From Desulfovibrio ferrophilus (GTDB lineage Bacteria > Desulfobacterota > Desulfovibrionia > Desulfovibrionales > Desulfovibrionaceae): DNA of 32,000 nucleotides. The stretch is taken from contig NZ_AP017378.1 in assembly GCF_003966735.1 (NCBI RefSeq), positions 1,848,905 through 1,880,904 of the forward strand, in the 5' to 3' direction. The notes under the pieces are model-generated. The model searched no databases, had not been told where the DNA came from, and saw only the letters and a list, made by a program, of their open reading frames with translations. Shown piece by piece: positions 18,789 to 31,958 of the stretch. The translations under genes were made by a program, and so were the position numbers. Each line of letters starts with the position of its first letter. The first letter of the stretch is position 1.

Positions 18789-18812
18789 ACAGATTGTCAT
18801 GTTACAATCTGT
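18789..18812. promoter_or_regulatory. Candidate enhancer (UAS) inverted repeat ACAGATTGT-N6-ACAATCTGT
   Basis: Perfect 9-bp arms lying 109 nt upstream of the -24 element. A second copy, 19/24 identical, occupies the equivalent position upstream of the second sigma54 promoter (28255-28278). Confidence 0.45.
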
Positions 18813-18920
18813 TTCGCGGCACACTTTAGACCCTTCCATTCGTGACGGGTCTCCCGCTTAGCGACGTACAACCCCCTGAAATCAATCAGATCAAAAACGG
18901 ACCTCGCCAAAGGCCGCAAC

Positions 18921-18936
18921 TGGCCCCCATGTTGCT
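18921..18936 (+). promoter_or_regulatory. Sigma54 (-24/-12) promoter TGGCCC-N5-TTGCT
   Basis: TGGCCCCCATGTTGCT fits TGGCAC-N5-TTGCW with exact GG/GC spacing. It lies 63 nt upstream of ATG 18998 and downstream of a sigma54 EBP gene. Confidence 0.6.
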
Positions 18937-18997
18937 TTCATCAGGACCCATGGAGTGCTCATGGGCAACCTGTCAGCGACATGCGTGGAGGGCGGAC

Positions 18998-20368
18998 ATG
19001 TACCTACAGCAAGCACTGCAGAAACTCGTGATGCCTCTGGCTCTGATGCTGCTCTGGGCAGCACCAATGACTGCGGCAGAAACCAGTCAATGCATCGAAT
19101 GCCACACCACCCCGGAAAAACTCATCAATGCCGTGAGGGAAATCGCCAGAAGTACCGTCGGAGTGCCCAGCGGATCGACCCAATTCGCAGGCGAAGGGTG
19201 AGGTGGTGCGGTGGAGCCGTTGGCTCCGCACGAAAAGGTCTTTGTGGACCGGGCTTTCCTTGAGGATGAAAACCACGGGGAAATCGATTGTCACGACTGC
19301 CACGGGGGCAACCCCGGTGAGCCAGATTTCATTGCGGCCCACGATGGACTGGTGCGCGATCCGACCACCGGCGACGCAACCCGGGTCTGCGGTGATTGCC
19401 ACGAGGAAGTGACCACCATCGCCAAGGGTAGCCTGCATGTTACCCTGAAGCCCTTCCAGCTGATGATCGACTCCCGCAGCGGCAACACCCCCGAGACCAA
19501 GGCCAATGTGGACACTGCCAGAAACGCCCATTGCGGGGCCTGCCACGCCAGTTGCGGACAATGCCATATCAGCCGCCCATCCTATGTGGGGGGAGGATTC
19601 CTGGACGGACACCAGTTCATACGCACCCCCCCCATGCGCGAAGTCTGCACGGCCTGTCACGGCAGCCGGATTGAAAACGAATATTTTGGTAAGAATCAGG
19701 GGTCGCCGCCTGACGTACATTGGCGCAAGCGCTTCTTCCGCTGCATCAAATGCCACACCGGTGAGGAAATGCATGGCGATGGTCAAACCGATGCCGCTCA
19801 CCGCTACGAGGCTCCCAGAGCACCGCGCTGCGAGGACTGCCACCTCTCCATCTACGCCGAGGGTGCCGACAACGCAAAGCAACATCGCACGCATCGGGAA
19901 CAGGTAAGTTGCCAAGTCTGTCACTCCGTGCCTTACAAGAACTGCAGCTCATGCCATGTCGCGCTCGATCGCTATGGCTTCAAGTATTTCAATAACGATG
20001 AAAACTTCCTGGGTTTCAAAATCGGGCTCAACCCCCAGCAAAGCCTTAAGCGCCCCCAAAGATTCGTGACGCTCAGGCATGTCCCCGTGGCCCCGAATCT
20101 GTTCGACTTCTACGTGGAAAACGGACTTGCCGAATTTGATGCCCTACCAACATGGAAGCTGGCCACACCCCACAATATTCGCAGGATCACCCCGCAGAAT
20201 AAGACCTGCAACGCCTGCCACGGCAACAAGGCTCTGTTCCTACTGTCAGGGGATGTATCCGAACCCTACCGACGGGCCAACGCCATGGTCATGGTTCCGG
20301 AAACCGAGATTCCACCCCGGCAGGATGAACAAGCCCTGCTGAGCATCGATCAGGGAGAAACGCCATGA
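18998..20368 (+). CDS. Periplasmic multihaem cytochrome c (about 11 CxxCH) containing an in-frame TGA at 19199-19201 (putative selenocysteine, or else a disrupted gene)
   Basis: Signal peptide MYLQQALQKLVMPLALMLLWAAPMTAA plus CIECH lie before the TGA. Ten more CxxCH motifs follow in the SAME frame (the ORF-track entries 18842-19201 and 19211-20368 are both frame 2). GGAGGG RBS before ATG 18998. Confidence 0.6.
19206..19231 (+). promoter_or_regulatory. SECIS-like hairpin immediately 3' of the in-frame UGA
   Basis: GUGC-[GGU bulge]-GGAGCC-GUU-GGCUCC-GCAC: 4+6 bp, with a bulged U and a GU in the apical loop. The loop G lies 20 nt from the U of the UGA. Confidence 0.4.
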
Positions 20369-20790
20369 AAAGAATAATGACCATTCTCCTGACCCTGACC
20401 CTCTGCACCTGCCTGGCTCAGACAGCCCTGCCCCAAGACCTAACCAAAAAGGATCTGGTGCGTGAAGCCAAGGCCGCCGTCACCCATGTCGACGTCAATC
20501 AGGCCAAACTGATGTGGGACAAGGGCGGGGTCTACTTCATCGACTGCCGCGAAGATAAAGAATTCAGGCAGGGCCACATTGCCGGGGCGCTCACCATCCC
20601 CCGGGGCTGGCTGGAATTCAAGATCGAGGAACTGGTGCCGGAACGCGACGCCAGCATCGTCCTCTACTGTCGTAGCGGGGATCGCAGCAGCCTTGGAGTC
20701 CTGTCGCTTCTCCGCATGGGCTATGGCAGAACCGTTAATCTCATAGGAGGATGGCGAGCCTGGAACAAGGCCGAATATCCGGTCGAATAG
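20365..20790 (+). CDS. Periplasmic single-domain rhodanese (sulfurtransferase)
   Basis: Signal peptide MKRIMTILLTLTLCTCLAQTA. Active-site loop YCRSGDRS. ATGA overlap with the cytochrome stop. Confidence 0.85.
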   Translation: MKRIMTILLTLTLCTCLAQTALPQDLTKKDLVREAKAAVTHVDVNQAKLMWDKGGVYFIDCREDKEFRQGHIAGALTIPRGWLEFKIEELVPERDASIVLYCRSGDRSSLGVLSLLRMGYGRTVNLIGGWRAWNKAEYPVE

Positions 20791-20820: not shown

Positions 20821-21234
20821 ATGTCCAGATTGTTTGCATTGACGGTTTGCCTACTGGCAGCGCTTCTGATCACGGTAGCGCCTTTGGCCGAAGAACAAAC
20901 CCCTGAACCGAAAGCCGTGACCATGGCCGTGGAATACGGACTGACAAGGGCCCAGATCGCCAGTTTCGACACGGCTCTCTGCGCACGTCTGATCCGCTTC
21001 GGCAAGGTCAGTCTGGCCCGGAAACAACATCTTGAGGCCAAACGATTCTTCTGGAAGGCGATTCTGGTGGAACCTACGTCCAAACTGGCCTGGATGTACT
21101 ACGACCAGGCGGTGCTGTTCACACTGGCCGACCAAGTCGAGCGCTCACCGGGACTGGTGGGGTTGCCCGGGCTGTCCGACGATCAGGAGGCGCAACCGGC
21201 TGCACCGGAACCGGAAGCCGAAGAAGGCTGCTGA
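20821..21234 (+). CDS. Secreted hypothetical protein with a Pro/Glu-rich tail ending in a C-terminal Cys
   Basis: Signal peptide MSRLFALTVCLLAALLITVAPLA, a helical core, and the tail ...DDQEAQPAAPEPEAEEGC-stop. Confidence 0.6.
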   Translation: MSRLFALTVCLLAALLITVAPLAEEQTPEPKAVTMAVEYGLTRAQIASFDTALCARLIRFGKVSLARKQHLEAKRFFWKAILVEPTSKLAWMYYDQAVLFTLADQVERSPGLVGLPGLSDDQEAQPAAPEPEAEEGC

Positions 21235-21255: not shown

Positions 21256-22443
21256 ATGAGCATCCGAGACAGCGAATTCCTGGCAACACTGAAACAGGCT
21301 TATGAACGACTGTTCATCAAAGAGTGGCCCACGGGAGTCGGCGGGATCCTCATCGGATTGATGAGCGTCATCTGTTTCACCTGGGCAAGGCCCTGGGGCG
21401 TGGTCGGCGGGTTGCGCGTCTGGGGCGACTGGTTCTTCCACAGTGTGGGGCTCTACGCCACCCCGCCGCATTCGGCCTGGATCGACACCAACTCCATCAT
21501 CACCATGGGCCTGCTCTGGGGATCATTTGCTGCCTCCCTCATCGCCCGTCAGTTCGGATTCCGCGTGCCACCCAAGCTGGAGATTGCCAAGGGCATTGTC
21601 GGCGGCACCCTGCTGGGCATCGGCGCCGGCTTGGCTGGCGGCTGCAATGTGGGCGGTTTCTATTCCGCCATCAGCGCCCTGTCCCTTTCGGGTTTCGCCA
21701 TGATGGCCGGACTGCTGGGGGGGGCCTGGCTAGGCCTCAAATATCTGTACTGGGAAATGGAACATCTGCCCTCTGGCGGCGGTGCCCAGGCCAAACCCAA
21801 AGAAAGCCGACGTGACTGGAGTCCTATCAAACCGTATCTGGGCTGGCTGGTACTCGCCTTGGGGATTGCCGCCAACGAGGTCTATCGACTCCGGGGCTAC
21901 ACCATTGAGGGAGGCATTCTGCTCTGCGGCATGGCCTTCGGATTCATTCTGGTGCGCAGCCGCTTCTGCTTTGCCAGGGCCTTCCGTGAGCCCTTCATGA
22001 CCGGCGACGCCAAGGTCACCCAGGCCGTGGCCGCAAGCCTGATGATCAGTGTTCTGGGCTTTGCGATCCTCAAATGGTCCGGGATCAGGCCCGAGATGTC
22101 CTATGTCTCCTCCAATTTCGCCCTGGGAGGAATGTTGGGCGGCTTCATCTTCGGCTTCGGCATGCTCATGACCGGAGGCTGCGGCAGCGGCACGGCCTGG
22201 CGCGCCGCCGAAGGTCAGATCAAGCTCATAGTGGCGCTGGTGGTCTTCACCCTCTCCAATTCACTGACCAAAGCAGCTATCAACTCCTCCGAGAGCATCA
22301 AGGCACTGGTGGGAACCCGAGTCTTTCTACCTGACTATCTGGGTTATCGGGGCACGGTCCTGTGCATCTTCCTGGTCCTGGCCCTGTGGTACCTGCTGGC
22401 AGCCTGGAATGAAGCCACTGATAAATTTGTTGTTGAGATGTAA
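21256..22443 (+). CDS. YeeE/YedE-family inner-membrane sulfur-compound (thiosulfate-type) transporter
   Basis: 395 aa, polytopic. Conserved Cys motifs GLAGGCNVGG and TGGCGSGTAWR are typical of YeeE/YedE. Confidence 0.9.
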   Translation: MSIRDSEFLATLKQAYERLFIKEWPTGVGGILIGLMSVICFTWARPWGVVGGLRVWGDWFFHSVGLYATPPHSAWIDTNSIITMGLLWGSFAASLIARQFGFRVPPKLEIAKGIVGGTLLGIGAGLAGGCNVGGFYSAISALSLSGFAMMAGLLGGAWLGLKYLYWEMEHLPSGGGAQAKPKESRRDWSPIKPYLGWLVLALGIAANEVYRLRGYTIEGGILLCGMAFGFILVRSRFCFARAFREPFMTGDAKVTQAVAASLMISVLGFAILKWSGIRPEMSYVSSNFALGGMLGGFIFGFGMLMTGGCGSGTAWRAAEGQIKLIVALVVFTLSNSLTKAAINSSESIKALVGTRVFLPDYLGYRGTVLCIFLVLALWYLLAAWNEATDKFVVEM

Positions 22444-22507
22444 CAGCTGGCGCGGGTCAGCGGGCTCTCCGTCCAACCCCCACCGGCATCCACAACAGGA
22501 GGACACC

Positions 22508-22747
22508 ATGACTGAGAACATCACTCCCGACGAAACCCTGGACTGCCGAGGACTGAGTTGTCCCATGCCCATGCTCAAGCTCAAGAAGGCGTTGAAGAGC
22601 ATGGCTCCGGGCACGGTTCTTGAGATGATGGGGACCGACCCCGGGACCACAAACGACATCGAACTGGGAGCCAAGAAGCAGGGCGGGGAATACCTGGGAA
22701 ACAAGGAAGCGGAAGGGTACATCAGCTACTACATCCGCAAGTCCTAA
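22508..22747 (+). CDS. tusA: TusA-family sulfur carrier
   Basis: LDCRGLSCPMPMLKLKKAL carries the CPxP active-site motif. 79 aa. AGGAGG RBS before ATG 22508. Adjacent to YeeE. Confidence 0.9.
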   Translation: MTENITPDETLDCRGLSCPMPMLKLKKALKSMAPGTVLEMMGTDPGTTNDIELGAKKQGGEYLGNKEAEGYISYYIRKS

Positions 22748-22796
22748 CGGATTGTTCCCCGACGCAGGGAACGTCTGCAACGCATGGAGGTTGGTC

Positions 22797-23105
22797 ATGG
22801 ACAAGAAACTGGGTGTCTACGTTTCGTCCAACGAGCACCTGCCGCAACTCGTCAAACTTTGTCAGGCCGCCAGACGCGCCGATGTGGGCGTGGACATCTT
22901 CTTCAGCCATCTCGGATGCAGCATGATGAAAGACCCGCTGTTCGAAGAACTTCCCAAGGTGGTCAATCGTATGGCCATGTGTCTGGTCTGCTTCGAGGAG
23001 CACGGCGGTGAACGGCCCGTCCCCGGATTCGGAGATAAGGATTACGCAACGCAGGAACGGCATTGCGAGATCATCGATGGCTGCGGCCGATATCTGAGTT
23101 TTTGA
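22797..23105 (+). CDS. DsrE/DsrF-like protein
   Basis: 102 aa. KLGVYVSS start and a ...GCGRYLSF end are typical of the DsrE/F fold family. GGAGG RBS. Position is after tusA. Confidence 0.55.
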   Translation: MDKKLGVYVSSNEHLPQLVKLCQAARRADVGVDIFFSHLGCSMMKDPLFEELPKVVNRMAMCLVCFEEHGGERPVPGFGDKDYATQERHCEIIDGCGRYLSF

Positions 23106-23144
23106 AGCAACTCGCACGCGAACGGTGCCACGGAGGAACGAACA

Positions 23145-23495
23145 ATGGAAAACATCAAGCATGTCGGCATGATCGTACACCGTTTCGAGGATTTGTGGCA
23201 GTGCACGAGATCAGCGTTGGGGTTGGCCGTGGGCAACTACTTCTCCTACATGTTCCTGTTGGATGTGCCGGCAGAAATGAACGAGAAGCTTCAGGAAAAC
23301 TTCGAGTGGCTTGTCGAGGACATGGAGTGCGAATGCTACTCCAACGTCCGGTTCAAGGAGGAACACCTGATCAAGTATCTCACAACGGACGCCATCGCCA
23401 AAAAACTCAAGGAAATGGATATCGTCATTCCCTTCGGCAATCGCATGGAGGCACCCGTGGGCAGGATGCCCATCCTTTGGATGCTGGACAACTAG
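23145..23495 (+). CDS. Conserved hypothetical protein (first small gene after the DsrE-like gene)
   Basis: 116-aa ORF with tight spacing in the operon. No motif recognised. Confidence 0.55.
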   Translation: MENIKHVGMIVHRFEDLWQCTRSALGLAVGNYFSYMFLLDVPAEMNEKLQENFEWLVEDMECECYSNVRFKEEHLIKYLTTDAIAKKLKEMDIVIPFGNRMEAPVGRMPILWMLDN

Positions 23496-23525
23496 GCCGC
23501 CTCGACCGGCCGACCGGGAGGTCGC

Positions 23526-23768
23526 ATGATGACCGAACGCATTGAACAAGACAATCTGGACATCGGGATATGCCCCAGGCGCAAGCGCAAGAAGATGCTG
23601 CACATCCTGAACTCGGTTCCCGATGATACGCAGCGCAAACTCATCAGCACTCTGTCCCTAGGGTACCACACCATGGAGTTCCCCTTGTACGAGGAAAACA
23701 CGGACGGGGACTACGACGAGCTCATCGAACTGATCTTCGAATACGATGAAGTCGTCTCTTGGTGGTAG
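23526..23768 (+). CDS. Conserved hypothetical protein (second small gene), acidic C-terminus
   Basis: 80-aa ORF with a GGGAGG RBS. Its stop lies 2 nt before the next start. Confidence 0.5.
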   Translation: MMTERIEQDNLDIGICPRRKRKKMLHILNSVPDDTQRKLISTLSLGYHTMEFPLYEENTDGDYDELIELIFEYDEVVSWW

Positions 23769-23770: not shown

Positions 23771-25207
23771 ATGCGTGGCGTCGCAAAACTTCGGAAGCAG
23801 GGCCTCTACGCCCTGGCGCTAATGTCGATCCTGTGGGCGCTTACAGCCCATGGTGGGACGACGGCCCCGACGGACTGTGGAGATTGCCATGGCGAACAGG
23901 TCCAGGCTGTCTTCCGCTCGCCTCACTCCACGCTAGCGGGCATCATCAACCAGACCCGCTATCTCTGGGGCGCGCAGGACTCCGTCCTGCCCCACGTCTT
24001 CAGCGCGAACAATGCCCTGCGCCCACTCCCGCAGCCCATCCCAACTCCCCGTTCCCCGGCCATGCTGGTAGACGATTTTTTACGTAGTGAATGCCTGCAC
24101 TGCCACCTCGGCTCCCCGGGCAAGGACGGCAGACGTCCCACAGGCTGCGCCGCCTGCCACAGCCTGGAGGGTACAACGTCTTGCGGCTTGCCGGAAGCAA
24201 CGCCCAAGACGGCAGATGAACACGCCACGCGCGTGGCTGCCGCAGACGACTCGGCCTGCCTGGAATGTCACCAGGAAAACCACGTCGGCGCAGATTTCCA
24301 CGGGGTGTTTCAAGGCGAGATCTACGGAAATCAACGGCAGACCTCACCCGTCATCCAACTCACGCAGGACATCCATGCTAGCCGGGGGCTCGGCTGCCTG
24401 GATTGCCACAGCGGGGCAGAGGTCATGGGGCAAGGCGGACGCGCGCCATCGTGCACCGCCTGCCATGGGGGATATACGGGCGAACCTCCCGACCCCACGC
24501 GGCGAGGCGTTCGCCTCCAGAACGGTACAGCGATGTTCGACGCCCGGGACGGCAGGACTAGGGTTCTTCCCAGGATTTCGACGGATACTGCCGGGCACGA
24601 CGAAATGCTGCATAGTCGCCTGCGTTGCAGCGCCTGCCATGCCCAATGGGCCTTCGGGGAGTACGGCCTGTCCGTGATGCGCCTGGATGCGCCTACGCAC
24701 GACCCGCGCACGGCTCGAGCGTTGAGGAGTCCCCAAAAAAAGACGAGATGGCTGGTGGGATGGCGCTTCCGCCGCTGGGAGCAACTGCCGCTGGGCGTGG
24801 ACGCCAGAGGACGTATCTCGGTCCTACGCCCCAAGAACCAGTACCTCGTCTCCTTCACGAACTCTCTGGGACGGGTCGTGCTTGAGAGCGTGATTCCCCA
24901 GCGCGGAGACTCATCCGGCCCAGGCTGGGCCTTTCTGCCCTATGAGCCGCACACCACAGGGGCAAAGGGCCGGCTGTGCTCATCCTGCCACGAAAACCAG
25001 GAGGCAACAGGCCTCGCCCCAGCGTGGGCCGTCCCGCCTGACCTCGTCCTGTTCGAAGCGACTCCTCCCACGCCCGGAAACGGGCAGTTGTTGACGACGA
25101 AAGACGCCGAACGTTTGCTTCACTCGTCGCAGGACTTCCGCCGCCGATTCGCGGCATATCTCTCAAGGCTGCTGGAGAAGAACAGATGTTGCGTCGAACA
25201 GCCCTAG
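23771..25207 (+). CDS. Periplasmic octahaem cytochrome c
   Basis: Signal peptide MRGVAKLRKQGLYALALMSILWALTAHG. CxxCH x8: CGDCH, CLHCH, CAACH, CLECH, CLDCH, CTACH, CSACH, CSSCH. Confidence 0.8.
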   Translation: MRGVAKLRKQGLYALALMSILWALTAHGGTTAPTDCGDCHGEQVQAVFRSPHSTLAGIINQTRYLWGAQDSVLPHVFSANNALRPLPQPIPTPRSPAMLVDDFLRSECLHCHLGSPGKDGRRPTGCAACHSLEGTTSCGLPEATPKTADEHATRVAAADDSACLECHQENHVGADFHGVFQGEIYGNQRQTSPVIQLTQDIHASRGLGCLDCHSGAEVMGQGGRAPSCTACHGGYTGEPPDPTRRGVRLQNGTAMFDARDGRTRVLPRISTDTAGHDEMLHSRLRCSACHAQWAFGEYGLSVMRLDAPTHDPRTARALRSPQKKTRWLVGWRFRRWEQLPLGVDARGRISVLRPKNQYLVSFTNSLGRVVLESVIPQRGDSSGPGWAFLPYEPHTTGAKGRLCSSCHENQEATGLAPAWAVPPDLVLFEATPPTPGNGQLLTTKDAERLLHSSQDFRRRFAAYLSRLLEKNRCCVEQP

Positions 25208-25581
25208 GATGGATGAAGTCCGCCCTGCACTTGGTCATCGCAGGCCTTGTAGCTTGGCCTGTGCTACGCTTCGTGTCCTGGCGCAGAGCCGGCACCCGCA
25301 GAGTCCGCTTCGGCCCCGAAGAGCAGACGGACCACAGCTATCGGGACGGGGTCTACCTGATCCGCACGGATTCGGGGCTTCTGGCCCTGTCGGCGCGCTG
25401 CACGCATCTATGCTGCACGGTCTGTTGGCAGGAGTCTCGAGGGCAATTCCTTTGTCCCTGCCACGACAGCCGCTACGACGCCCGGGGCAGAAGACTCTCG
25501 GGCCAGGCCCGGGAGGATCTCACTTCCCTGGAAATCCATCATCTGGGCAACGGCAGCATTGAGGTGGAGGCTCCCTTGTAA
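25186..25581 (+). CDS. Rieske [2Fe-2S] protein with an N-terminal membrane anchor
   Basis: CTHLCC ... CPCHDSRY (CxH / CxxH boxes). TM helix ALHLVIAGLVAWPVL. Overlaps the upstream stop. Confidence 0.85.
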   Translation: MLRRTALGWMKSALHLVIAGLVAWPVLRFVSWRRAGTRRVRFGPEEQTDHSYRDGVYLIRTDSGLLALSARCTHLCCTVCWQESRGQFLCPCHDSRYDARGRRLSGQAREDLTSLEIHHLGNGSIEVEAPL

Positions 25582-25596
25582 CCTAGGAGAAGAAGC

Positions 25597-26457: not shown

Positions 26458-26467
26458 AGGAGGAAAC

Positions 26468-28228
26468 ATGCGGACGCTCATCATCCTGCTTGCCTTTCTC
26501 GTCCTGGCCGCGACCGTGACCCGGCAGGAAAACCATCTGGCCGCCTCCAGAGGCAATCCCCGCGAAGGTTGCATATCCTGCCATATGGCACGCGGAGGGC
26601 TGGGATCTGCAGCCCATGACGCGGTGACCATGGGCTGCTCGTCCTGCCACCTCGGCAACCCCCACGCCTTCGAGGCCGACAGAGCCCACCAAGGCATGGT
26701 GGTCAACCCTGGCGACCTGCGCGTGGCGGCGCAGACCTGCGGCCAGCGGCAATGCCATCCGGCCATGGTCCCTGCGGTCAAGCATTCGGTCATGGCCACG
26801 GCCAGCGGCATCCTGGGAGCCCTGGACTCTCTCTGGGGCATCGATCACGGCCCACGCAACGCAGCCCTGCTCTGGGACCAAGCCCCAACCGTCCGAACGG
26901 CCCCCGAACAGTATTTCGCCAAGCTCTGCGCAGCCTGCCACCTGTGGTGGCCCAAAGGACGCGGGCGAGGAGAACAGACGGCACGGGGCGGGGGGTGTAG
27001 CGCCTGCCACGTGGTCTCCAGTCCCGGAAAAGCTTTCTTGCTCGCGGGTGAATTCGACCATTGCGCACTGTCCATGCAGGTGCCCCTAGATAACTGCGTG
27101 CGCTGCCACAACCGCTCGGCGCGCGTGGGCCTGACCTACCAGGGCCAGTGGGAAGCCAACGGCTACGGCACTCCGCACACGCAAGGAACCCTCAACGCCC
27201 GTCGGCTCTCGGGAGGACGATTCTTCCAGTCCATCCCGCCGGACGCCCATTTCCAGGCGGGGATGGTCTGCATCGACTGTCACACTGGAACCGAACTGAT
27301 GGGCGGGGGCCTGGCCCACCGCCGTCTGCGGGACCAGTTGGACGTGGCCTGCCAGGATTGCCACGCTCCCAGATTCTCATCCGGACGGGACGCCCTGGCC
27401 GAAGCCGCCCGGATGGCGAAATTGAACCCCGCGGTTCCCACCTTCGAGGCACGGGCCGTAGCCACAACCAGCCGCGGGGCCACCCCCCTCTACGCCCTGC
27501 AGCTGTCAACCAGGCCCGGAGACGGTCCGTCGCGACAACCGCAAAACCCGCAGGCCCTGCTCTTTCGTAAACTGGACGGCAAGCCGCTTCTCCTGTCCCT
27601 ACCTGCCAACCCCGCCGAGCATCACGCCTTGCCTGGACATGAACGTCTGACCTGCCAGGCCTGCCACAGTCGGTTCATGCCCCGCTGCTACGGTTGCCAT
27701 GTCCAACTCGATCCCACCGGGCGGCAGTATGATGCCCTGGCGGACGAACACACGTCGGGCAAATGGCAGGAAAGCGCCTCCCACACGCGCTTCGAGGATC
27801 CGCCGCTGGCCGTGGACGCAACAGGGCGGCTGGCCCCGTATTCGCCCTGCGAGGTGCGCGTGGACCTTTGCCCGGAACAAGGCCGGACCCCGATGGCCCC
27901 GGCACGAAACGCCATAGCCTTCTTCGATCCGCATTCCACGGTCCCCCCGGCCAGAACATGCCAGGACTGCCATCTGGCCCTGCTGGGCCCAAGCCTAGAG
28001 GCCCTGGGGAATCCCGCGTGGCAGGCCTTCCCGGACGGCGGCAGGAAACTGAACGCAGACGAACGGCGCGCCGCTGCCGAGGTCACCCCATGCCTGCCCT
28101 GTCATGCCCGTTACGACGACGCCGTATTCAAGGACTTCGCCGCGAGCCGCAAGCGCCTCGCGGTCGGAGCGGCAACGGCCTGCACCGCGCCCCGAACCGC
28201 AATTTCTGTAGCAAGGAAAGGACAATGA
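26468..28228 (+). CDS. Periplasmic multihaem cytochrome c (about 11 CxxCH plus one CxxxxCH)
   Basis: Signal peptide MRTLIILLAFLVLAATV. Motifs CISCH, CSSCH, CGQRQCH, CAACH, CSACH, CVRCH, CIDCH, CQDCH, CQACH, CYGCH, CQDCH, CLPCH. Confidence 0.85.
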   Translation: MRTLIILLAFLVLAATVTRQENHLAASRGNPREGCISCHMARGGLGSAAHDAVTMGCSSCHLGNPHAFEADRAHQGMVVNPGDLRVAAQTCGQRQCHPAMVPAVKHSVMATASGILGALDSLWGIDHGPRNAALLWDQAPTVRTAPEQYFAKLCAACHLWWPKGRGRGEQTARGGGCSACHVVSSPGKAFLLAGEFDHCALSMQVPLDNCVRCHNRSARVGLTYQGQWEANGYGTPHTQGTLNARRLSGGRFFQSIPPDAHFQAGMVCIDCHTGTELMGGGLAHRRLRDQLDVACQDCHAPRFSSGRDALAEAARMAKLNPAVPTFEARAVATTSRGATPLYALQLSTRPGDGPSRQPQNPQALLFRKLDGKPLLLSLPANPAEHHALPGHERLTCQACHSRFMPRCYGCHVQLDPTGRQYDALADEHTSGKWQESASHTRFEDPPLAVDATGRLAPYSPCEVRVDLCPEQGRTPMAPARNAIAFFDPHSTVPPARTCQDCHLALLGPSLEALGNPAWQAFPDGGRKLNADERRAAAEVTPCLPCHARYDDAVFKDFAASRKRLAVGAATACTAPRTAISVARKGQ

Positions 28229-28254: not shown

Positions 28255-28278
28255 ACACATTGCAATGTGACAAACTGT
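28255..28278. promoter_or_regulatory. Second copy of the candidate UAS: ACACATTGC-N6-ACAAACTGT
   Basis: 19/24 identical to 18789-18812. It lies 107 nt upstream of the -24 element at 28385. Confidence 0.4.
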
Positions 28279-28384
28279 ACCATTGGAGCGATTGCGCACC
28301 GAGACACAAACGCACACGCCAAATCTGTTATTTTCAAGCAACTGAATTTACGAACCTTTAAAACACAAAGCGTCCCGTTTTCGT

Positions 28385-28400
28385 TGGCATCCTTTCTGCT
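28385..28400 (+). promoter_or_regulatory. Sigma54 (-24/-12) promoter TGGCAT-N5-CTGCT
   Basis: TGGCATCCTTTCTGCT has correct GG/GC spacing. It lies 67 nt upstream of ATG 28466. Confidence 0.5.
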
Positions 28401-28465
28401 TTTGTCTGGATGAACCAGCGGGATGGCCGATCCGCGGGGCCACAAACCAAAAGGCGTGGTGCTCC

Positions 28466-28972
28466 ATGAAAATGTCCAACCTCATACCGACGGAACAATG
28501 GATCGCACTGGAGCAGGAGTTGAACGAACGTTCGGGTTTCAACTGCTGTATCATCGACGAGGTTGGCATCCGAATCACCGCGTACCGCAACTGGGCCAAT
28601 CCGCTGTGCCCCAAAATCAGGAGGGACGCCAAGGGACTCGCCGAGATCTGCGCCCAGGTACCAAGCGCGATCGAGGCTCTCCCCTTAAAACGGAACGAAA
28701 TGCGGCTCACCACCTGCGCGGCCGGACTGCTCGTCATCGCAATGCCGATATTTCTGGGCACGGACTTCGTCGGGTATCTAGGCTGCTGCGGATTACTGCC
28801 CAGCGGAGGGCGGATCGACACACTGAAGGTGGGATTGGCAACGGGCCTGAGCGCACAGAAAATCGAACAGTTGAGCAAGGGAATCGAACGGCTGAACCCC
28901 AAGGAAATCGACGCCGCAGGGGAATACCTGAAGCGCCGCCTTGAGGACATCCTCACCAGGAACAAGAAATAA
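28466..28972 (+). CDS. Stand-alone PocR-type sensory domain protein
   Basis: 168 aa. Pattern ...NPLCPKIRR...ICAQV...TTCAAGLLVIAMPIFLGTDFVGYLGCCG matches the Cys-containing C..C..ChAGL..a.PI core of PocR domains (recognised from memory). Confidence 0.65.
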   Translation: MKMSNLIPTEQWIALEQELNERSGFNCCIIDEVGIRITAYRNWANPLCPKIRRDAKGLAEICAQVPSAIEALPLKRNEMRLTTCAAGLLVIAMPIFLGTDFVGYLGCCGLLPSGGRIDTLKVGLATGLSAQKIEQLSKGIERLNPKEIDAAGEYLKRRLEDILTRNKK

Positions 28973-28984
28973 CGGAGGTGTCCA

Positions 28985-30235
28985 ATGAACTCGGTAACGG
29001 TGGATAACTCACTGTCTCCGCATGGCGGTCAGCTCGTGGACAGGATAATCACCGACAAACAGCTTGCAACGACGATGGCAGGTGAATGCCAAGGCACGCT
29101 GCGCCTCAAGGGAAAGACTGCCCGTGAAATCGTCAATATCGCCTACGGGGTGTTCTCTCCTCTGGAAGGCTTCATGACCAAGGAGCAGTTGGACAGTGTC
29201 CTCACCACCATGATGCTGCCCAACGGCTACGTCTGGTCGCTGCCCATTCTCTACGATATCAGCGAGGAAAACTGCAGGGAAATGGCGATTGAGGTGGGGC
29301 ACAAGCTCCTGCTCGAATACCACAACGTCCCCTTTGCGGTGCTGGAGGTCGAGGACATTTATTCCTATGACAAGGACTACATGGCCAACCAGATTTACAG
29401 CGCCGAAAACGTGGACCACCCTGGCATCAAGCTGATCCATTCCCTCGAGGACTGGTTCCTGGGCGGCAAGGTGACCATGATCAATCCCCCCATCTTCCAA
29501 GATCCGTACGACAGGTACTTCTACACGCCCAAGCAGCTACGCGAGAAGTTCAAGCGGCGCCGCTGGAAGCGGGTGGTGGCCTTCCACACCACCGACGTGC
29601 CGCATACAGGGCACGAATGGATGATGAAGATGGCTTGGTTCCAGCACAGGGCCAGGGGCATCATGGTCAGTTGCGCGGTGGGCGACAAGAGCATCGGGGA
29701 TTGCATCGACGAAAACGTGCTCCTGGGCCACCACGAACTGCAGAAGTCGGGCTACTTCCAGGAAAGCGTCCACCTGACCACCATGCTGCTCTGGGACCGC
29801 CGCTACGCCGGCGCCAAGGAGGCGGTGTTACACGCCATCATGCGCAAAAACATGGGTTGCACCGGCCACATCTTCGGCAAGAACCACGCGCATCCACAGG
29901 GCTTCGGCGACACCTACGCCGCCCACTTCGCCTTCAAGGACCTTCCCGACCTGGGCCTGGAATCCATCCTGTCCAAGGAATGGTTCTACTGCAGCCACTG
30001 CCAGGGCGTGACCTATACGGGGTTCTGCGCGCACCCGGACAAGGTGGACCTGCTGGAATCCAAGAGCGTCTGCAGTCTGCTCTCCACCGGAATCCGGCCC
30101 ACGGACAACCTGTTGCGCCCCGAGGTATTCGACGTAATCGTCGGAGCTGCCGACAAATACGGCTTTGGGGATGGCTACGTCACGGAAGACTACCTGCGCC
30201 GGCGCAGCCCGATCTTCACGCTGGCGAAGTTCTGA
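28985..30235 (+). CDS. Sulfate adenylyltransferase (ATP sulfurylase)-like protein with divergent active-site motifs
   Basis: SPHGGQLVDR N-terminus, RRYAGAKEAVLHAIMRKNMGCTGHIFG core and 416 aa fit the Sat family. However, the canonical QTRNPxHRxH reads HTTDVPHTGH (res 201-210) and GRDHAG reads GKNHAH (298-303). Confidence 0.75.
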   Translation: MNSVTVDNSLSPHGGQLVDRIITDKQLATTMAGECQGTLRLKGKTAREIVNIAYGVFSPLEGFMTKEQLDSVLTTMMLPNGYVWSLPILYDISEENCREMAIEVGHKLLLEYHNVPFAVLEVEDIYSYDKDYMANQIYSAENVDHPGIKLIHSLEDWFLGGKVTMINPPIFQDPYDRYFYTPKQLREKFKRRRWKRVVAFHTTDVPHTGHEWMMKMAWFQHRARGIMVSCAVGDKSIGDCIDENVLLGHHELQKSGYFQESVHLTTMLLWDRRYAGAKEAVLHAIMRKNMGCTGHIFGKNHAHPQGFGDTYAAHFAFKDLPDLGLESILSKEWFYCSHCQGVTYTGFCAHPDKVDLLESKSVCSLLSTGIRPTDNLLRPEVFDVIVGAADKYGFGDGYVTEDYLRRRSPIFTLAKF

Positions 30236-30323
30236 TTCCGGCGAAATCCCGGCGGCGGCCCCCAGGTGCGGAGCCGCCGCCACCGCCCTTGGTTCTCGTA
30301 TCGTAAGAGGAGGCCAGTCCCCC

Positions 30324-31958
30324 ATGCAAATGAAGGATCTGATTTCATCCGACAAATGGAAGAAGTTCGGCGCCGACTTCAACGACCATTCGGGAATGAC
30401 CGCCTATGCCTATGACGCGGCGGGTGATCACGTGATCGAAAAACGAAGATGGGCGAACCAGCTCTGTCCGATCATCCGCGGCGGGGAGCCTCACAGGGAA
30501 GAAAGCGTCTGCGCTAAATCCCACAAGGCCATGGCCGAGTTGGTCCGCAAGGAGGGAAAGATCATCGTCGGCACCTGCCAGGCCGGCCTGCTCAACATCG
30601 CGTTGCCCGTGTTCGTGGGCAACGATTTCGCCGGAATCGTCGGCGGGTGCGGCCTGCTCCCCCCCAAAGGGGAGGTCGATGCCGACGTGGTCAACGCGAT
30701 CACGGGGATGGAGAAAAACGCGGCCACGACCTTGGGGCAGAACATTCGCCGCCTGTCCCCCGAGGAGATTGAAACCCAGGTCCGCTACCTTGAGGACCGC
30801 GTCCTAGACATCGTTGCCCGATACAAGGAAGGCTACCGCAAAACCAAGACGCGCACCTTCAAGAGCCTGATCCGGGATGTCCAGCGCAAGGGCCGCTGCC
30901 ACCAGTGCGGCGCCTGCGTGACCTTCTGCACGGCCATGAACTACGGTGCGCTAGAACTCTCGGAGACCGGACGCCCCATGTTCCGGGATCCCAACAAGTG
31001 CATCGAATGCGGAGTCTGCTACATGATCTGCCCGGCGGTGGACGACCTGAACGAGATGCTCAAGGCCAAGGTGGGCTGGCAGCCACCCCTAGGCCGGACC
31101 GAGCAAATCGGCGTATTCAGAGCGCGGGACGAAGCACTTCGCACACGCGCCACGGACGGGGGCACGGTGACCGCCATCCTCTCCCACCTCTTCGAAGAAA
31201 AGCTCATCGACGGCGCGGCGGTAACGCGACAGGCCGGCCCGTTCAAACGCATCCCCTGGCTGGCTACGGATGCCGACCAAGTCATCGAATCCGCGGGCTC
31301 TAGCTTCGACTTTTCTGTCAGCGGAGCCATCTCCCTCTATGCTCAGGACTATTCGACCTATTCACCTTCCATGCGCATGCTTGGCCCTGCCACACACAAG
31401 GGGCTGTCCAATGTTGCCGTGGTGGGCACACCCTGCCAGATCAACGCGGTGCGCAAGATGGAAACCTTGGGGGTAGTGCCTTCGCAATCGGTTTACTGCC
31501 TGTTGGGATTGTTCTGCTCCGGCGGCTATGTCTTCGGCGACAAACGCAGGGAGAAGATCGAACGCATCGGAAACTTCTCCTGGGAAGAAGTCGACAAGAT
31601 CAACATCAGAGACCGCTTCCTGGTTCGCCTGAAGAACGGCGAGCAACTCTCCCTGCGCCTCGACGAACTGGACTTCGTTAAGCGCAAGGCCTGCCGGTAT
31701 TGCGATGACTACACCTCCGAGTTCGCCGATCTATCCTTTGGCGGCATCGGCGCCCCGGAAGGCTGGACGACGGTCATCGCACGCACGGCCAAGGGCGTAA
31801 AGATTCTCGAGGAGGCCAAGGAGACCGTGCTCGAACAGTACGACGAAGCGCCGGACGCTGAACGGATGATCACCTTACGGGAGGTCATCGAATGGCATTC
31901 CGCGGCCAAAAAGGAATCCGCTGCGCAGCAGTTGGTCAAGCTCCCCAATGGTCGCTAG
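30324..31958 (+). CDS. Fusion protein: PocR-type sensory domain + 2x[4Fe-4S] ferredoxin + FrhB/FdhB-family (F420 hydrogenase/dehydrogenase beta-like) flavoprotein
   Basis: The N-terminus parallels the 28466 protein (NQLCPIIRG...GTCQAGLLNIALPVFVGNDFAGIVGGCG). Ferredoxin motifs are CHQCGACVTFC and CIECGVCYMICP. FrhB motifs are GGTVTAILSHL, VVGTPCQINAVRK, LGLFCSGG and CRYCDDYTSEFADLSFGGIG. Start at ATG 30324 with an AAGAGGAGG RBS. Confidence 0.8.
   Translation: MQMKDLISSDKWKKFGADFNDHSGMTAYAYDAAGDHVIEKRRWANQLCPIIRGGEPHREESVCAKSHKAMAELVRKEGKIIVGTCQAGLLNIALPVFVGNDFAGIVGGCGLLPPKGEVDADVVNAITGMEKNAATTLGQNIRRLSPEEIETQVRYLEDRVLDIVARYKEGYRKTKTRTFKSLIRDVQRKGRCHQCGACVTFCTAMNYGALELSETGRPMFRDPNKCIECGVCYMICPAVDDLNEMLKAKVGWQPPLGRTEQIGVFRARDEALRTRATDGGTVTAILSHLFEEKLIDGAAVTRQAGPFKRIPWLATDADQVIESAGSSFDFSVSGAISLYAQDYSTYSPSMRMLGPATHKGLSNVAVVGTPCQINAVRKMETLGVVPSQSVYCLLGLFCSGGYVFGDKRREKIERIGNFSWEEVDKINIRDRFLVRLKNGEQLSLRLDELDFVKRKACRYCDDYTSEFADLSFGGIGAPEGWTTVIARTAKGVKILEEAKETVLEQYDEAPDAERMITLREVIEWHSAAKKESAAQQLVKLPNGR

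What the first reader, a model, noticed from the sequence alone, without database searches (positions are those of the whole stretch)
18789..31958. A 13-kb sigma54-controlled supercluster as one functional unit
All 16 genes are co-directional, mostly overlapping or less than 40 nt apart. They are served by two look-alike sigma54 promoters and sit next to a multi-PAS EBP. The combination spans periplasmic oxidation/reduction (three multihaem cytochromes, about 31 haems), sulfur transfer (rhodanese, the C-terminal-Cys protein) and import (YeeE). It also covers cytoplasmic relay (TusA/DsrE-like), membrane energy coupling (Rieske/cytochrome b) and a cytoplasmic nucleotidyl-transferase/flavoprotein pair. 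As an assembly this is not a pathway I can name. It may represent an uncharacterised route for oxidising or disproportionating an intermediate-oxidation-state sulfur (or selenium) compound.
Basis: inference. Interest (0 to 1): 0.7.

Follow-up and report, generated by a model that had tools for sequence, protein, structure and literature searches.

The report
Conserved sulfur redox-and-relay gene supercluster
A 13-kb, two-operon gene block in the iron-corroding sulfate reducer Desulfovibrio ferrophilus is kept intact in several related bacteria; it joins a Geobacter-like cytochrome chain containing a selenium-bearing haem protein to a known sulfur import-and-relay system, which points to an undescribed way of handling elemental sulfur or polysulfide.

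Summary
Each operon sits behind a sigma54 -24/-12 element and a similar palindrome, next to a 4-PAS enhancer-binding protein. The organism is Desulfovibrio ferrophilus.

The whole block, in the same order, recurs in five other contigs, plus a sixth cut at its end, at 42-72% protein identity, including Desulfocurvus sp. The flanks differ in each.

The block is a mosaic of four modules that also occur alone:
- A: a selenocysteine undecahaem cytochrome plus a rhodanese.
- B: a periplasmic protein ending in EEGC, then YeeE-TusA-DsrEFH type II (the published 'YTD' cluster).
- C: a Rieske/cytochrome b pair with two large multihaem cytochromes, remote homologues of Geobacter ExtMNOP.
- D: PocR, a Sat-like protein with altered catalytic motifs, and PocR-ferredoxin-FrhB.

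The closest known system is Geobacter extHIJKLMNOPQS, whose selenoprotein MccSep is a polysulfide reductase.

Best reading (inference): co-regulated machinery for zero-valent sulfur, probably disproportionation or oxidation. Function is untested. I rate it a new variant of known kinds, of moderately high interest.

The parts
15817..18768 (+). sigma54 enhancer-binding protein: about 270-aa N-terminal region, 4 PAS domains, AAA+ domain (GAFTGA) and HTH_8
   Evidence: Pfam Sigma54_activat 6.4e-65, PAS families and HTH_8. The gene call matches the Logan annotation. The orthologue is adjacent in L002, L049, L084, L085 and L167.
18790..18811 (.). palindrome CAGATTGTCATGTTACAATCTG, candidate EBP-binding site about 120 nt upstream of promoter P1
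   Evidence: Read from sequence. Similar TGTCA-N3-(T/G)ACA or TTGTC...TTACA palindromes lie upstream of P1 and/or P2 in L002, L049, L085 and L167. That this is a binding site is inference.
18921..18937 (+). sigma54 promoter P1 (TGGCCC-N5-TTGCTT)
   Evidence: The equivalent element lies 75-104 nt before the start codon in L002, L049, L084, L085 and L167.
18998..20368 (+). MHC-A: periplasmic undecahaem cytochrome c with predicted selenocysteine (in-frame TGA 19199-19201, motif GEG-U-GG)
   Evidence: One frame carries a signal peptide, 1 CXXCH before and 10 after the TGA. The TGA, with conserved coding sequence on both sides, is present in L002, L049, L084, L085, L167 and the Desulfobacterales locus L083. 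Homologue P0088 has Cys at that position. Of the 120 best hits among 2316 (E<=1e-5), almost all are about 371-aa calls that start just after the TGA.
19209..19232 (+). SECIS-like hairpin (GGUGGAGCC-GUU-GGCUCCGC) starting about 10 nt after the UGA
   Evidence: RNAfold. The sequence is nearly invariant at synonymous positions in 6 genomes, with one G-C to G-U change. There is no Rfam family match. Function is inferred.
20365..20790 (+). periplasmic single-domain rhodanese (active-site loop CRSGDR)
   Evidence: Pfam Rhodanese 1.8e-18; signal peptide and motif read from sequence. A rhodanese follows MHC-A in all seven loci where the neighbours were read.
20821..21234 (+). CtC: periplasmic protein with a helical core, a Pro/Ala/Glu-rich linker and an invariant C-terminal ...EEGC-COOH; candidate swinging-arm sulfur carrier
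   Evidence: No Pfam or NCBIfam hit. The family has 82 representative clusters, and 64 of them end in [DE]GC. It is fused to the C-terminus of rhodanese proteins in L003, L016, L034, L054 and L085. In an independent metagenome sample, YeeE lies immediately downstream in 41 of 50 loci and TusA in the others.
21256..22443 (+). YeeE/YedE-family membrane sulfur transporter (YTD 'Y')
   Evidence: Pfam Sulf_transp 2.4e-51. NCBIfam YedE/FdhT 141.8 bits and TsuA 111.9 bits, both below cutoff.
22508..22747 (+). TusA sulfur carrier (CPMP motif)
   Evidence: Pfam TusA 9.9e-24; NCBIfam TusA and YedF hits.
22797..23768 (+). DsrE-, DsrF- and DsrH-like genes (102, 116 and 80 aa) = DsrEFH type II of the YTD cluster
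   Evidence: Order and sizes match the published YTD cluster (PMC13293266, PMC9751629). The DsrE2 family profile hits PDB 3pnx 'putative sulfurtransferase DsrE' at E 4.7e-4, and Pfam DsrE hits 9 of 13 family members. Cys62 is invariant.
23771..25207 (+). MHC-B: periplasmic multihaem cytochrome (8 CXXCH here, 10 in relatives), ExtN/ExtM-like
   Evidence: NCBIfam ExtM 98 bits and ExtN 80 bits, below cutoffs.
25186..25581 (+). Rieske [2Fe-2S] protein (CTHLCC ... CPCH)
   Evidence: Pfam Rieske 5.5e-8; NCBIfam PetC-type 5.2e-15; motifs read from sequence.
25597..26457 (+). cytochrome b (b6-like N-terminus plus a C-terminal part with the GPWFxxGxQ motif), ExtP-like
   Evidence: Pfam Cytochrome_B 6.8e-18. 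The best NCBIfam hit is ExtP, 81.7 bits against a cutoff of 290. Four His are invariant in 33 homologues.
26468..28228 (+). MHC-C: dodecahaem cytochrome (11 CXXCH + 1 CX4CH), remote ExtM homologue
   Evidence: NCBIfam ExtM 9.2e-65, 219 bits over residues 28-474, against a cutoff of 800; motif counts.
28256..28279 (.). palindromic element CACATTGCAATGTGACAAACTGTA, candidate EBP site about 118 nt upstream of P2
   Evidence: Read from sequence. By my own comparison, it matches the P1 element at 15 of 21 positions. That this is a binding site is inference.
28385..28401 (+). sigma54 promoter P2 (TGGCAT-N5-CTGCTT)
   Evidence: conserved in L002, L049, L084, L085 and L167.
28466..28972 (+). stand-alone PocR-domain protein with four invariant Cys
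   Evidence: PocR assignment from the precomputed Pfam hit. Alignment with the fused PocR domains shows 4 invariant Cys.
28985..30235 (+). Sat-like protein (PUA_2 + ATP-sulfurylase fold) with altered catalytic motifs: QTRN becomes HTTD, GRDHAG becomes GKNHAH; HxxH is kept
   Evidence: Pfam. It scores below both NCBIfam Sat cutoffs. It was aligned to solved ATP sulfurylases 8a8d and 1v47. The substitutions are shared by a small clade (the 15 closest clusters, P0164-P0178), while 104 of 120 other hits are canonical.
30324..31958 (+). PocR + 2x[4Fe-4S] ferredoxin + FrhB_N/FrhB_C flavo-iron-sulfur protein (FpoF / Fsr-N-half-like)
   Evidence: Pfam, NCBIfam, and PDB sequence hits to FrhB-type subunits and Fsr 7np8. 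It always follows the Sat-like gene.

Best explanation
The block is a conserved regulon of two sigma54 operons under one PAS-rich enhancer-binding protein. It assembles four modules for handling zero-valent sulfur (polysulfide or S0) on both sides of the inner membrane.

Module A, periplasm (inferred): the selenocysteine undecahaem cytochrome MHC-A, working with the rhodanese, makes or breaks S-S bonds. This is by analogy with the Geobacter haem selenoenzyme MccSep, a polysulfide reductase.

Module C, membrane (inferred from homology to ExtMNOP): the Rieske/cytochrome b pair and the two large multihaem cytochromes connect the menaquinone pool to MHC-A.

Module B, sulfur import and relay:
- The rhodanese loads sulfane sulfur onto the C-terminal Cys of CtC (inferred from gene fusions and neighbourhood).
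- CtC hands the sulfur to YeeE for import.
- TusA and DsrEFH type II pass it to DsrC/DsrAB for oxidation to sulfite (shown in vitro for cable-bacterial proteins; inferred here).

Module D: the Sat-like/FrhB-like/PocR trio acts on the oxidised product or a related adenylylated sulfur species. This is the weakest step.

Net result: electrons from cytoplasmic sulfur oxidation re-enter the quinone pool and are used by the cytochrome chain to reduce more periplasmic sulfur. That is disproportionation. Run the other way, the same machinery would perform sulfide or S0 oxidation.
For: Conservation:
- The whole order is kept in five other loci plus a sixth cut at its end, in at least two named genera, at 42-72% identity and with unrelated flanks.
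- sigma54 elements occupy both promoter positions in 6 of 6 genomes, and similar palindromes lie upstream of many of them.

Linkage between modules:
- Of 18 Rieske/cytochrome b loci that carry the 10- and 11-haem cytochromes, 13 have YTD genes adjacent. Of 62 loci without those cytochromes, none do (Fisher p = 3e-11).
- CtC lies immediately upstream of YeeE in 41 of 50 independent loci and is fused to rhodanese in five.
- MHC-A is followed by a rhodanese in all seven loci where the neighbours were read. It is paired with a PAS-type sigma54 activator even when it stands alone.
- A Sat-like paralogue sits directly after DsrEFH type II in L086.

Selenocysteine: a conserved TGA, a Cys-containing homologue and a downstream hairpin.

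Literature:
- DsrEFH type II transfers sulfur from TusA to DsrC (PMC13293266).
- YTD proteins are more abundant during thiosulfate disproportionation (PMC9751629).
- The ext cluster selenoprotein MccSep is a polysulfide reductase essential for S0 respiration (PMC13510729, PMC5877670).
- A published S0-disproportionation model has the same logic, with Psr in place of the cytochromes (PMC12142623).
Against: - No expression, genetic or biochemical data exist for this block in any organism. None was found in the held library.
- All Ext similarities fall below the NCBIfam equivalog cutoffs.
- MHC-A is not an MccSep homologue. It has 11 haems against 5, a different Sec position, no match to the ExtKL/MccSep NCBIfam model (NF040886, as numbered in PMC13188914) and no PDB sequence match. 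Its catalytic role is therefore purely analogical.
- The structure model was poor (pLDDT 58) and Foldseek found nothing.
- A Rieske centre is usually too positive in potential to feed polysulfide reduction, so the direction of electron flow is unclear.
- Module D has no known function, and its Sat-like protein has lost the residues that bind sulfate.
- Each module also occurs alone, so co-function is not obligatory.
- D. ferrophilus is not known to me to disproportionate sulfur.
Confidence: 0.55

Rival explanations
1. The block serves S0/polysulfide respiration only, as a Desulfovibrionaceae version of the Geobacter Ext chain. Menaquinol would feed Rieske/cytochrome b, then the multihaem cytochromes, then the Sec-cytochrome, which reduces polysulfide to sulfide. 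YTD and module D would only salvage or detoxify sulfur that leaks in.
For: The parts list parallels ext: a rhodanese, a Sec multihaem cytochrome, 12- and 10-haem cytochromes, a Rieske protein and a cytochrome b (PMC5877670). MccSep is essential for S0 respiration (PMC13510729).
Against: The tight, repeated linkage to YeeE-TusA-DsrEFH type II (13 of 18 loci) points to an oxidative cytoplasmic branch, which is the biochemically shown role of that system (PMC13293266). No such genes are listed in the Geobacter ext cluster (PMC5877670). There is no porin ExtI.
Confidence: 0.15
2. The block serves selenium metabolism. It would reduce selenite in the periplasm, import selenium via YedE and YedF-like TusA, and activate it with a Sat-like enzyme for selenoprotein synthesis or detoxification.
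For: The best NCBIfam hit of the transporter is 'selenium metabolism membrane protein YedE/FdhT', and TusA also hits YedF. The ext operon was first tied to selenite and tellurite reduction, and MccSep reduces selenite (PMC5877670, PMC13510729). The block itself encodes a selenoprotein.
Against: All those hits are far below cutoff (141.8 bits against 350). MccSep prefers polysulfide about sevenfold by Vmax/K0.5 (PMC13510729). DsrEFH type II is a sulfur relay to DsrC, and it co-occurs with reductive dsrAB in 74% of genomes (PMC13293266). Thirty-one haems and a quinol oxidase are out of scale for trace-element handling.
Confidence: 0.08
3. The block is an extracellular electron-uptake or electron-transfer conduit, related to the iron-corrosion physiology of D. 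ferrophilus. The sulfur genes would be coincidental passengers.
For: D. ferrophilus IS5 is known for multihaem-cytochrome-dependent electron uptake (PMC5815863, PMC8322314). Ext proteins are more abundant in Geobacter grown with Fe(III) than with fumarate, and ExtH/ExtKL are regulated by Fur (PMC5877670).
Against: The block contains no porin or outer-membrane component. The corrosion proteomics paper mentions none of six search terms covering this block's rhodanese, sulfurtransferase, sulfur-transport, Rieske, cytochrome b and Sat components. The same block occurs in genomes and MAGs with no link to corrosion. Sulfur-transfer genes are interleaved within the operon, not appended to it.
Confidence: 0.07
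4. The block is an accidental or merely historical juxtaposition of independent modules with no joint function.
For: Each module exists alone elsewhere. Module C has a distinctly higher G+C content (62-66% against 57-58%), suggesting separate acquisition. Mobile-element genes flank the block in two genomes.
Against: The order is identical in five other loci, plus a sixth cut at its end, at 42-72% identity while the flanks differ. Gene overlaps run across module borders: MHC-A/rhodanese by -4 nt, DsrH/MHC-B by +2 nt. There is one promoter for modules A, B and C, and a matching one for D.
Confidence: 0.05

Closest known systems
Geobacter sulfurreducens extHIJKLMNOPQS cluster with the haem selenoenzyme MccSep (ExtKL) (PMC5877670, PMC13510729)
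   Same: Both are one co-directional cluster combining a rhodanese, a periplasmic selenocysteine-containing multihaem cytochrome, a 12-haem and a (usually) 10-haem cytochrome, a Rieske protein and a cytochrome b. MHC-C, MHC-B and the cytochrome b are detectable remote homologues of ExtM, ExtN and ExtP.
   Different: All scores are below the equivalog cutoffs. There is no porin ExtI, ExtQ or ExtS. The rhodanese is a 141-aa single domain, against 49 kDa for ExtH. The selenoprotein is a different family: 11 haems with Sec after haem 1 (GEG-U-GG), against 5 haems with Sec near the C-terminus. The gene order differs. YTD and the Sat-like/FrhB operon are added, and control is by sigma54.
YTD cluster / YeeE-TusA-DsrEFH type II (PMC13293266, PMC9751629)
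   Same: The gene order, sizes and domains of 21256-23768 match. The DsrE-like subunit has the invariant Cys. It co-occurs with sulfate-reducer lineages.
   Different: Here the cluster is embedded in a 12-gene operon between cytochrome modules. It is preceded by the EEGC-ended periplasmic protein, which the passages of the published descriptions I read do not single out. Most YTD loci stand alone.
Psr-rhodanese plus YeeE/TusA/reverse-Dsr model of S0 disproportionation in Desulfurivibrio (PMC12142623)
   Same: The logic is the same: periplasmic polysulfide reduction assisted by secreted sulfurtransferases, import by YeeE, relay by TusA to Dsr, and exchange of electrons through menaquinone.
   Different: The molybdopterin Psr is replaced by a haem/selenocysteine and Rieske/cytochrome b chain. 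All parts are in one regulon.
SoxYZ carrier (knowledge of the Sox system)
   Same: CtC resembles it in concept: a periplasmic protein whose reactive Cys sits at the very end of a flexible C-terminal arm.
   Different: There is no sequence relationship. The motif is [DE]EGC-COOH, not GGCGG, the core is helical, and the partner is YeeE/rhodanese rather than SoxAX/B/CD.
ATP sulfurylase with APS reductase (Sat/AprBA), and the FrhB-like half of Fsr
   Same: The Sat-like protein has the full PUA plus ATP-sulfurylase fold and the HxxH motif. The FrhB-like protein carries flavin-type and [4Fe-4S] domains, as do AprBA and the electron-input half of Fsr.
   Different: The sulfate/phosphate-binding QxRN and GRD motifs are replaced in the whole clade. 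There is no AprA/B homology and no sirohaem domain. PocR domains with 4 invariant Cys are added.

Membership tests
YTD / YeeE-TusA-DsrEFH type II cluster | Syntenic order yeeE-tusA-dsrE-like followed by two small conserved genes | tested here: met
   Genes 21256-23768 are 395, 79, 102, 116 and 80 aa. The same order recurs in dozens of loci.
YTD / YeeE-TusA-DsrEFH type II cluster | DsrE-like subunit with the conserved active-site Cys (Cys67 in Electronema) | tested here: met
   Cys62 is invariant in 13 aligned family members. The profile hits PDB 3pnx DsrE at E 4.7e-4, and Pfam DsrE hits 9 of 13 members. The exact equivalence to Cys67 is inferred.
YTD / YeeE-TusA-DsrEFH type II cluster | Score above 80 bits with the authors' DsrE/F/H type II HMMs | not testable with these tools
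YTD / YeeE-TusA-DsrEFH type II cluster | [quoted passage not shown] | not testable with these tools
   This needs a biochemical assay.
Geobacter Ext cluster (ExtM/N/O/P equivalogs) | NCBIfam equivalog scores for ExtM, ExtN and ExtP | tested here: not met
   ExtM 219 bits against 800; ExtN 80 against 200; ExtP 81.7 against 290. These are homologues, not equivalogs.
Geobacter Ext cluster (ExtM/N/O/P equivalogs) | Outer-membrane porin ExtI and ExtQ/ExtS present in the cluster | tested here: not met
   No such genes lie between 15817 and 31958.
Geobacter Ext cluster (ExtM/N/O/P equivalogs) | Rieske + cytochrome b + 12-haem + 10-haem cytochromes + rhodanese + Sec-cytochrome in one cluster | tested here: met
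   All six kinds are present. MHC-B has 8 haems here and 10 in relatives.
MccSep (ExtKL) haem selenoenzyme family | Five conserved CXXCH motifs and a Sec/Cys site near the C-terminus (..DGUP..) | tested here: not met
   MHC-A has 11 CXXCH motifs, with Sec in GEG-U-GG between haems 1 and 2. It has no NCBIfam ExtKL hit and no PDB sequence hit.
Bacterial selenoprotein | In-frame UGA conserved among orthologues, with coding conservation on both sides | tested here: met
   Seven genomes.
Bacterial selenoprotein | Cys-containing homologues at the Sec position | tested here: met
   P0088 has GEWCGG. P0071 has Trp instead.
Bacterial selenoprotein | SECIS hairpin just downstream of the UGA | tested here: inconclusive
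   A stable, highly conserved hairpin starts about 10 nt after the UGA. There are no compensatory changes, only one G-C to G-U change, and no Rfam model.
Bacterial selenoprotein | selA/selB/selC/selD in the genome; selenium in the protein | not testable with these tools
   Only 32 kb of the genome is in hand.
ATP sulfurylase (Sat) | PUA_2 + ATP-sulfurylase domains and the HxxH motif | tested here: met
   Pfam 5.7e-42 and 2.5e-55. HTGH aligns with the HxxH of 8a8d and 1v47.
ATP sulfurylase (Sat) | QxRN and GRD substrate-binding motifs; NCBIfam cutoffs | tested here: not met
   HTTD and GKN replace them. The closest clade members carry similar substitutions, while 104 of 120 other hits are canonical. 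Scores are 371.7 against 387 and 299.7 against 322.95 bits.
sigma54-dependent operon | -24 GG / -12 GC element at the correct spacing upstream of the operon, and an adjacent EBP with GAFTGA | tested here: met
   P1 and P2; 12 of 12 positions in six genomes. The transcription start is not mapped.
FrhB / FpoF / Fsr-N flavo-FeS module | FrhB_N + FrhB_C domains preceded by a 2x[4Fe-4S] ferredoxin domain | tested here: met
   Pfam; NCBIfam FpoF and FrhB below cutoff; PDB hits 8rja, 3zfs and 7np8. Use of F420 was not testable.
SoxY-type carrier | SoxY fold and C-terminal GGCGG | tested here: not met
   CtC has no Pfam or NCBIfam hit, and its C-terminus is [DE]EGC. The resemblance is functional analogy only.

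The most novel reading that the evidence does not exclude
The block is a self-contained, sigma54-switched pathway for disproportionating (or electrogenically oxidising) elemental sulfur/polysulfide that runs without a molybdopterin polysulfide reductase.

It would be built around three undescribed protein families:
- A widespread undecahaem selenoenzyme that makes or breaks S-S bonds.
- A periplasmic swinging-arm carrier ending in EEGC that feeds YeeE.
- A Sat-like/FrhB-like pair that replaces or supplements Apr/Sat for the final oxidation step.

If so, many 'sulfate reducers' that carry parts of the block could switch sulfur-cycle direction.
Probability: 0.25. Interest if true: 0.8.

Novelty: new variant of a known kind. 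Interest (0 to 1): 0.62.

Why it matters
How anaerobes disproportionate or oxidise elemental sulfur is still unresolved, and no genetic marker is agreed.

This block physically ties the recently characterised DsrEFH type II relay to a quinol-linked cytochrome chain of the type shown in 2026 to carry out S0 respiration in Geobacter. It does so in culturable organisms (D. ferrophilus IS5, and probably Desulfocurvus sp. DL9XJH121, which by its name looks like an isolate). That makes the link directly testable.

It also points to three protein families worth study in their own right:
- A large, highly conserved selenocysteine undecahaem cytochrome family that gene callers routinely truncate.
- An EEGC-terminated periplasmic partner of YeeE.
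- A Sat paralogue that has lost its sulfate-binding residues.

For D. ferrophilus, a model for microbial corrosion, sulfur cycling at FeS surfaces could be relevant.

Tried and rejected
- Rfam scan of the window: no family, so no curated SECIS or other RNA.
- sigma70 promoter and terminator scans: not above the shuffled expectation.
- AlphaFold2 model of the Cys-type MHC-A homologue P0088 with a 34-sequence alignment: pLDDT 58. Foldseek against the PDB gave no match, so the fold class is unresolved.
- Sequence search of MHC-A against the PDB: only chance hits.
- First CtC alignment (51 sequences): too diverse for the locus scan. A 12-sequence alignment worked.
- My tblastn query 'MHCA_N' was cut one base out of frame (18999 instead of 18998). 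Its absence from other loci is therefore meaningless. The N-terminal part was checked instead by direct translation.
- Literature searches for this cluster in D. ferrophilus or Desulfovibrionaceae, and for PocR/Sat/FrhB together, found nothing relevant.
- PADLOC and PHROGs on the low-GC insert in the neighbouring prophage: no informative hit.
- I considered calling the flavoprotein an APS reductase. I rejected this because it is FrhB-family with no AprA/B similarity.
- I considered filing MHC-A under MccSep. I rejected this on the membership test.

Full report
**1. What is there**

ORF listing, translation and Pfam/NCBIfam scans show an enhancer-binding protein followed by 15 genes, all on the + strand between 15817 and 31958.

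- The EBP has 4 PAS domains, a sigma54 AAA+ domain with GAFTGA, and HTH_8.
- Gaps between genes are -22 to +88 nt. The two exceptions are 230 nt before the first gene and 237 nt between MHC-C and the PocR gene.
- The cytochrome b is 100% identical to a Desulfovibrio ferrophilus protein. The same 17-kb stretch is held as a Logan contig, in which a convergent gene follows the last gene of the block.
- Upstream, window 1-15.4 kb is prophage: terminase, portal, S49 protease and primase.

**2. Correction to the gene count: one gene is a selenoprotein**

ORFs 18842-19201 and 19211-20368 are in the same frame, separated by TGA at 19199-19201. The real start is ATG 18998, after a GGAGG. It gives a signal peptide and a first CXXCH.

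- The TGA is kept in L002, L049, L084, L085, L167 and the Desulfobacterales locus L083. Protein sequence is conserved on both sides (..GEG-U-GG[AE]VE..).
- A hairpin (GGUGGAGCC-GUU-GGCUCCGC) starts about 10 nt after the TGA. It is nearly invariant even at synonymous sites.
- A homology search found 2316 relatives. Almost all of the best 120 are about 371-aa calls that begin just after the TGA. One full-length relative has Cys at that position and one has Trp.

MHC-A is therefore a predicted selenocysteine undecahaem cytochrome. It does not match the NCBIfam ExtKL model or any PDB sequence. It is not among the haem selenoproteins listed in a 2026 selenoproteome review (PMC13188914). The structure model was poor and Foldseek found nothing.

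**3. Regulation**

- TGGC-N8-TGCTT occurs only twice in the window, at 18921 and 28385. Those are the two long intergenic gaps (expected 0.44; 8 of 100 shuffles gave at least 2).
- On its own that is weak. However, -24/-12 elements sit 75-104 nt before the first gene of each operon in all six genomes examined, 12 of 12 positions.
- About 120 nt upstream of each lies a palindrome of the type TGTCA-N3-(T/G)ACA (18790-18811 and 28256-28279). Related palindromes occur in the other genomes.
- That the adjacent EBP binds them is inference.

**4. Is the block conserved?**

I aligned 33 homologues of the cytochrome b and scanned species-representative genomes. I then mapped all window proteins onto the 80 loci by tblastn. 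Further contigs were fetched through identical-protein look-ups.

- The complete order EBP, MHC-A, rhodanese, CtC, YeeE, TusA, DsrEFH, MHC-B, Rieske, cytochrome b, MHC-C, PocR, Sat-like, FrhB-like recurs in:
  - L049 (Desulfovibrionaceae MAG)
  - L084 and L085 (metagenome contigs)
  - L167 (Desulfocurvus sp. DL9XJH121)
  - L002 (cut inside Sat)
- Identity is 42-72%, and the downstream genes differ in each.

**5. It is a mosaic of four modules**

*Module A.* A PAS-type sigma54 activator, MHC-A and a rhodanese stand alone in Desulfobacterales (L082, L083).

*Module B.* This is the published YTD cluster, now identified as YeeE-TusA-DsrEFH type II (PMC13293266, PMC9751629). The DsrE-like family profile reaches a solved DsrE at E 4.7e-4 and has an invariant Cys.

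*Module C.* The Rieske protein, cytochrome b and the 10- and 11/12-haem cytochromes occur in 18 of the 80 loci. Thirteen of those have YTD genes adjacent, against none of the 62 loci that lack the cytochromes (Fisher p = 3e-11). Gene orders are rearranged in Desulfohalobiaceae and Desulfobacteraceae.

*Module D.* PocR, Sat-like and PocR-Fd-FrhB stand alone in L086. In that locus a second Sat-like gene directly follows an EBP-DsrEFH type II unit.

Module C has a higher G+C content than its neighbours.

**6. The small C-terminal-Cys protein (CtC)**

- It has no Pfam or NCBIfam family.
- A full HMMER search found 82 representative clusters. All are about 140 aa, with a signal peptide and a Pro/Ala/Glu-rich linker, and 64 end in [DE]GC.
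- It is fused to the C-terminus of rhodanese proteins in five loci.
- In an independent metagenome sample it lies directly upstream of YeeE in 41 of 50 loci and of TusA in the rest.
- I infer a periplasmic swinging-arm sulfur carrier between rhodanese and YeeE. It would work like SoxY but is not related to it.

**7. The Sat-like protein and its partners**

- The Sat-like protein has the ATP-sulfurylase fold and the HxxH motif. In alignment to solved enzymes, however, QTRN is HTTD and GRDHAG is GKNHAH.
- It scores below both NCBIfam Sat cutoffs.
- Related substitutions mark a small clade, the 15 closest clusters. By contrast, 104 of 120 other hits are canonical.
- Its constant partner is an FpoF/Fsr-N-like flavo-iron-sulfur protein.
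- Both that protein and a stand-alone protein carry a PocR domain with four invariant Cys.
- The function is unknown. An AMP-dependent oxidation step parallel to Apr/Sat is a guess.

**8. Closest known system**

NCBIfam placed MHC-C, MHC-B and the cytochrome b nearest to ExtM, ExtN and ExtP of the Geobacter 'selenite/tellurite reduction operon', all below cutoff.

- That cluster, extHIJKLMNOPQS, holds a rhodanese, a porin, a small protein, the selenoprotein ExtKL, 12- and 10-haem cytochromes, a Rieske protein and a cytochrome b (PMC5877670).
- ExtKL, renamed MccSep, is a pentahaem Sec enzyme. It reduces polysulfide and is essential for S0 respiration (PMC13510729).
- The present block has the same kinds of parts. 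It differs in having a different selenoprotein family, no porin, the YTD relay inserted, a fourth module added, and sigma54 control.
- A published disproportionation model for Desulfurivibrio has the same logic with Psr as the reductase (PMC12142623).

**9. Mechanism**

Shown here:
- Gene content.
- Conservation of order.
- Promoter elements.
- The Sec signature.
- The CtC-YeeE and CtC-rhodanese linkage.
- The altered Sat motifs.

Shown elsewhere: TusA to DsrEFH type II to DsrC transfer, and MccSep activity.

Inferred:
- MHC-A is the sulfur-active enzyme.
- Module C links it to menaquinone.
- CtC feeds YeeE.
- The net process is disproportionation or oxidation of zero-valent sulfur.

The direction of electron flow through a Rieske centre is a real difficulty for the reductive reading. 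I found no description of this assembly in the held literature.

**10. Verdict**

The 'one unit' interpretation is supported by comparative genomics, but much of the assembly is now nameable. The function is plausible but untested. I rate it a new variant of known kinds, with several undescribed components, and an interest of about 0.6.

Noticed in passing
window 19199-19232 (and L002, L049, L083, L084, L085, L167): An in-frame TGA with a conserved downstream hairpin makes the first cytochrome a predicted selenoprotein. Gene callers split or truncate it in almost all of the 120 best public homologues (2316 hits in all). It belongs to none of the haem selenoprotein families listed in a 2026 review.
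   Followed up: yes
window 20821-21234; L003, L016, L034, L054, L085; L087-L166: A small periplasmic protein family has an invariant [DE]EGC C-terminus. It nearly always sits just upstream of YeeE and is sometimes fused to rhodanese. It looks like an unrecognised extra member of the YTD cluster.
   Followed up: yes
window 28985-30235; P0164-P0178: A Sat paralogue clade has replaced the QxRN and GRD motifs. It is rare: the altered motifs mark only the 15 closest clusters among the best 120 hits from 5.8 billion clusters.
   Followed up: partly
L086 7364-11251: A second Sat-like gene lies directly after an EBP-DsrE/F/H type II unit, with no YeeE or TusA. The PocR-Sat-like-FrhB trio sits 4 kb upstream in the same contig.
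   Followed up: no
window 28466-28972 and 30324-30850: The PocR domains (stand-alone and fused) share four invariant cysteines (WANxxC, xxC, CxAG, GGCG). This suggests a metal or Fe-S site rather than a small-molecule sensor.
   Followed up: partly
window 23771-25207: MHC-B has 8 CXXCH motifs in D. ferrophilus (482-aa ORF; 478 aa from the chosen start), but 10 in most relatives (about 520-640 aa). Two haem sites appear to have been lost.
   Followed up: no
window 24000-28000: G+C content is 62-66% across MHC-B to MHC-C, against 57-58% in the rest of the block. This suggests the Rieske/cytochrome module was acquired separately.
   Followed up: no
window 1-15400: A prophage lies next to the block: portal, S49 protease, large and small terminase, and primase.
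   Followed up: partly
window about 5100-8500: A 34-39% G+C insert lies between the portal and terminase genes. It encodes an 802-aa protein with no hit in Pfam, PADLOC or PHROGs, and a pentapeptide-repeat protein.
   Followed up: partly
P0071 (homologue of MHC-A): This full-length homologue has Trp (TGG) where the others have Sec or Cys. It is either a real substitution or a base-call error.
   Followed up: no
L049 5079-5409: The CtC gene is split by a frameshift in this long-read MAG. This is probably an assembly error.
   Followed up: no
L005-L047 and L061-L081: About 62 of the 80 related Rieske/cytochrome b pairs in Desulfobacterota have no multihaem cytochromes beside them. They have other recurring neighbours, for example a series of roughly 570, 160, 214, 342, 213 and 168 aa in Desulfobulbaceae. 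This is a different, uncharacterised complex.
   Followed up: no
one search hit table: JGI names many MHC-A homologues 'thiosulfate/3-mercaptopyruvate sulfurtransferase', although they are multihaem cytochromes. The name was possibly propagated from cytochrome-rhodanese fusions.
   Followed up: no
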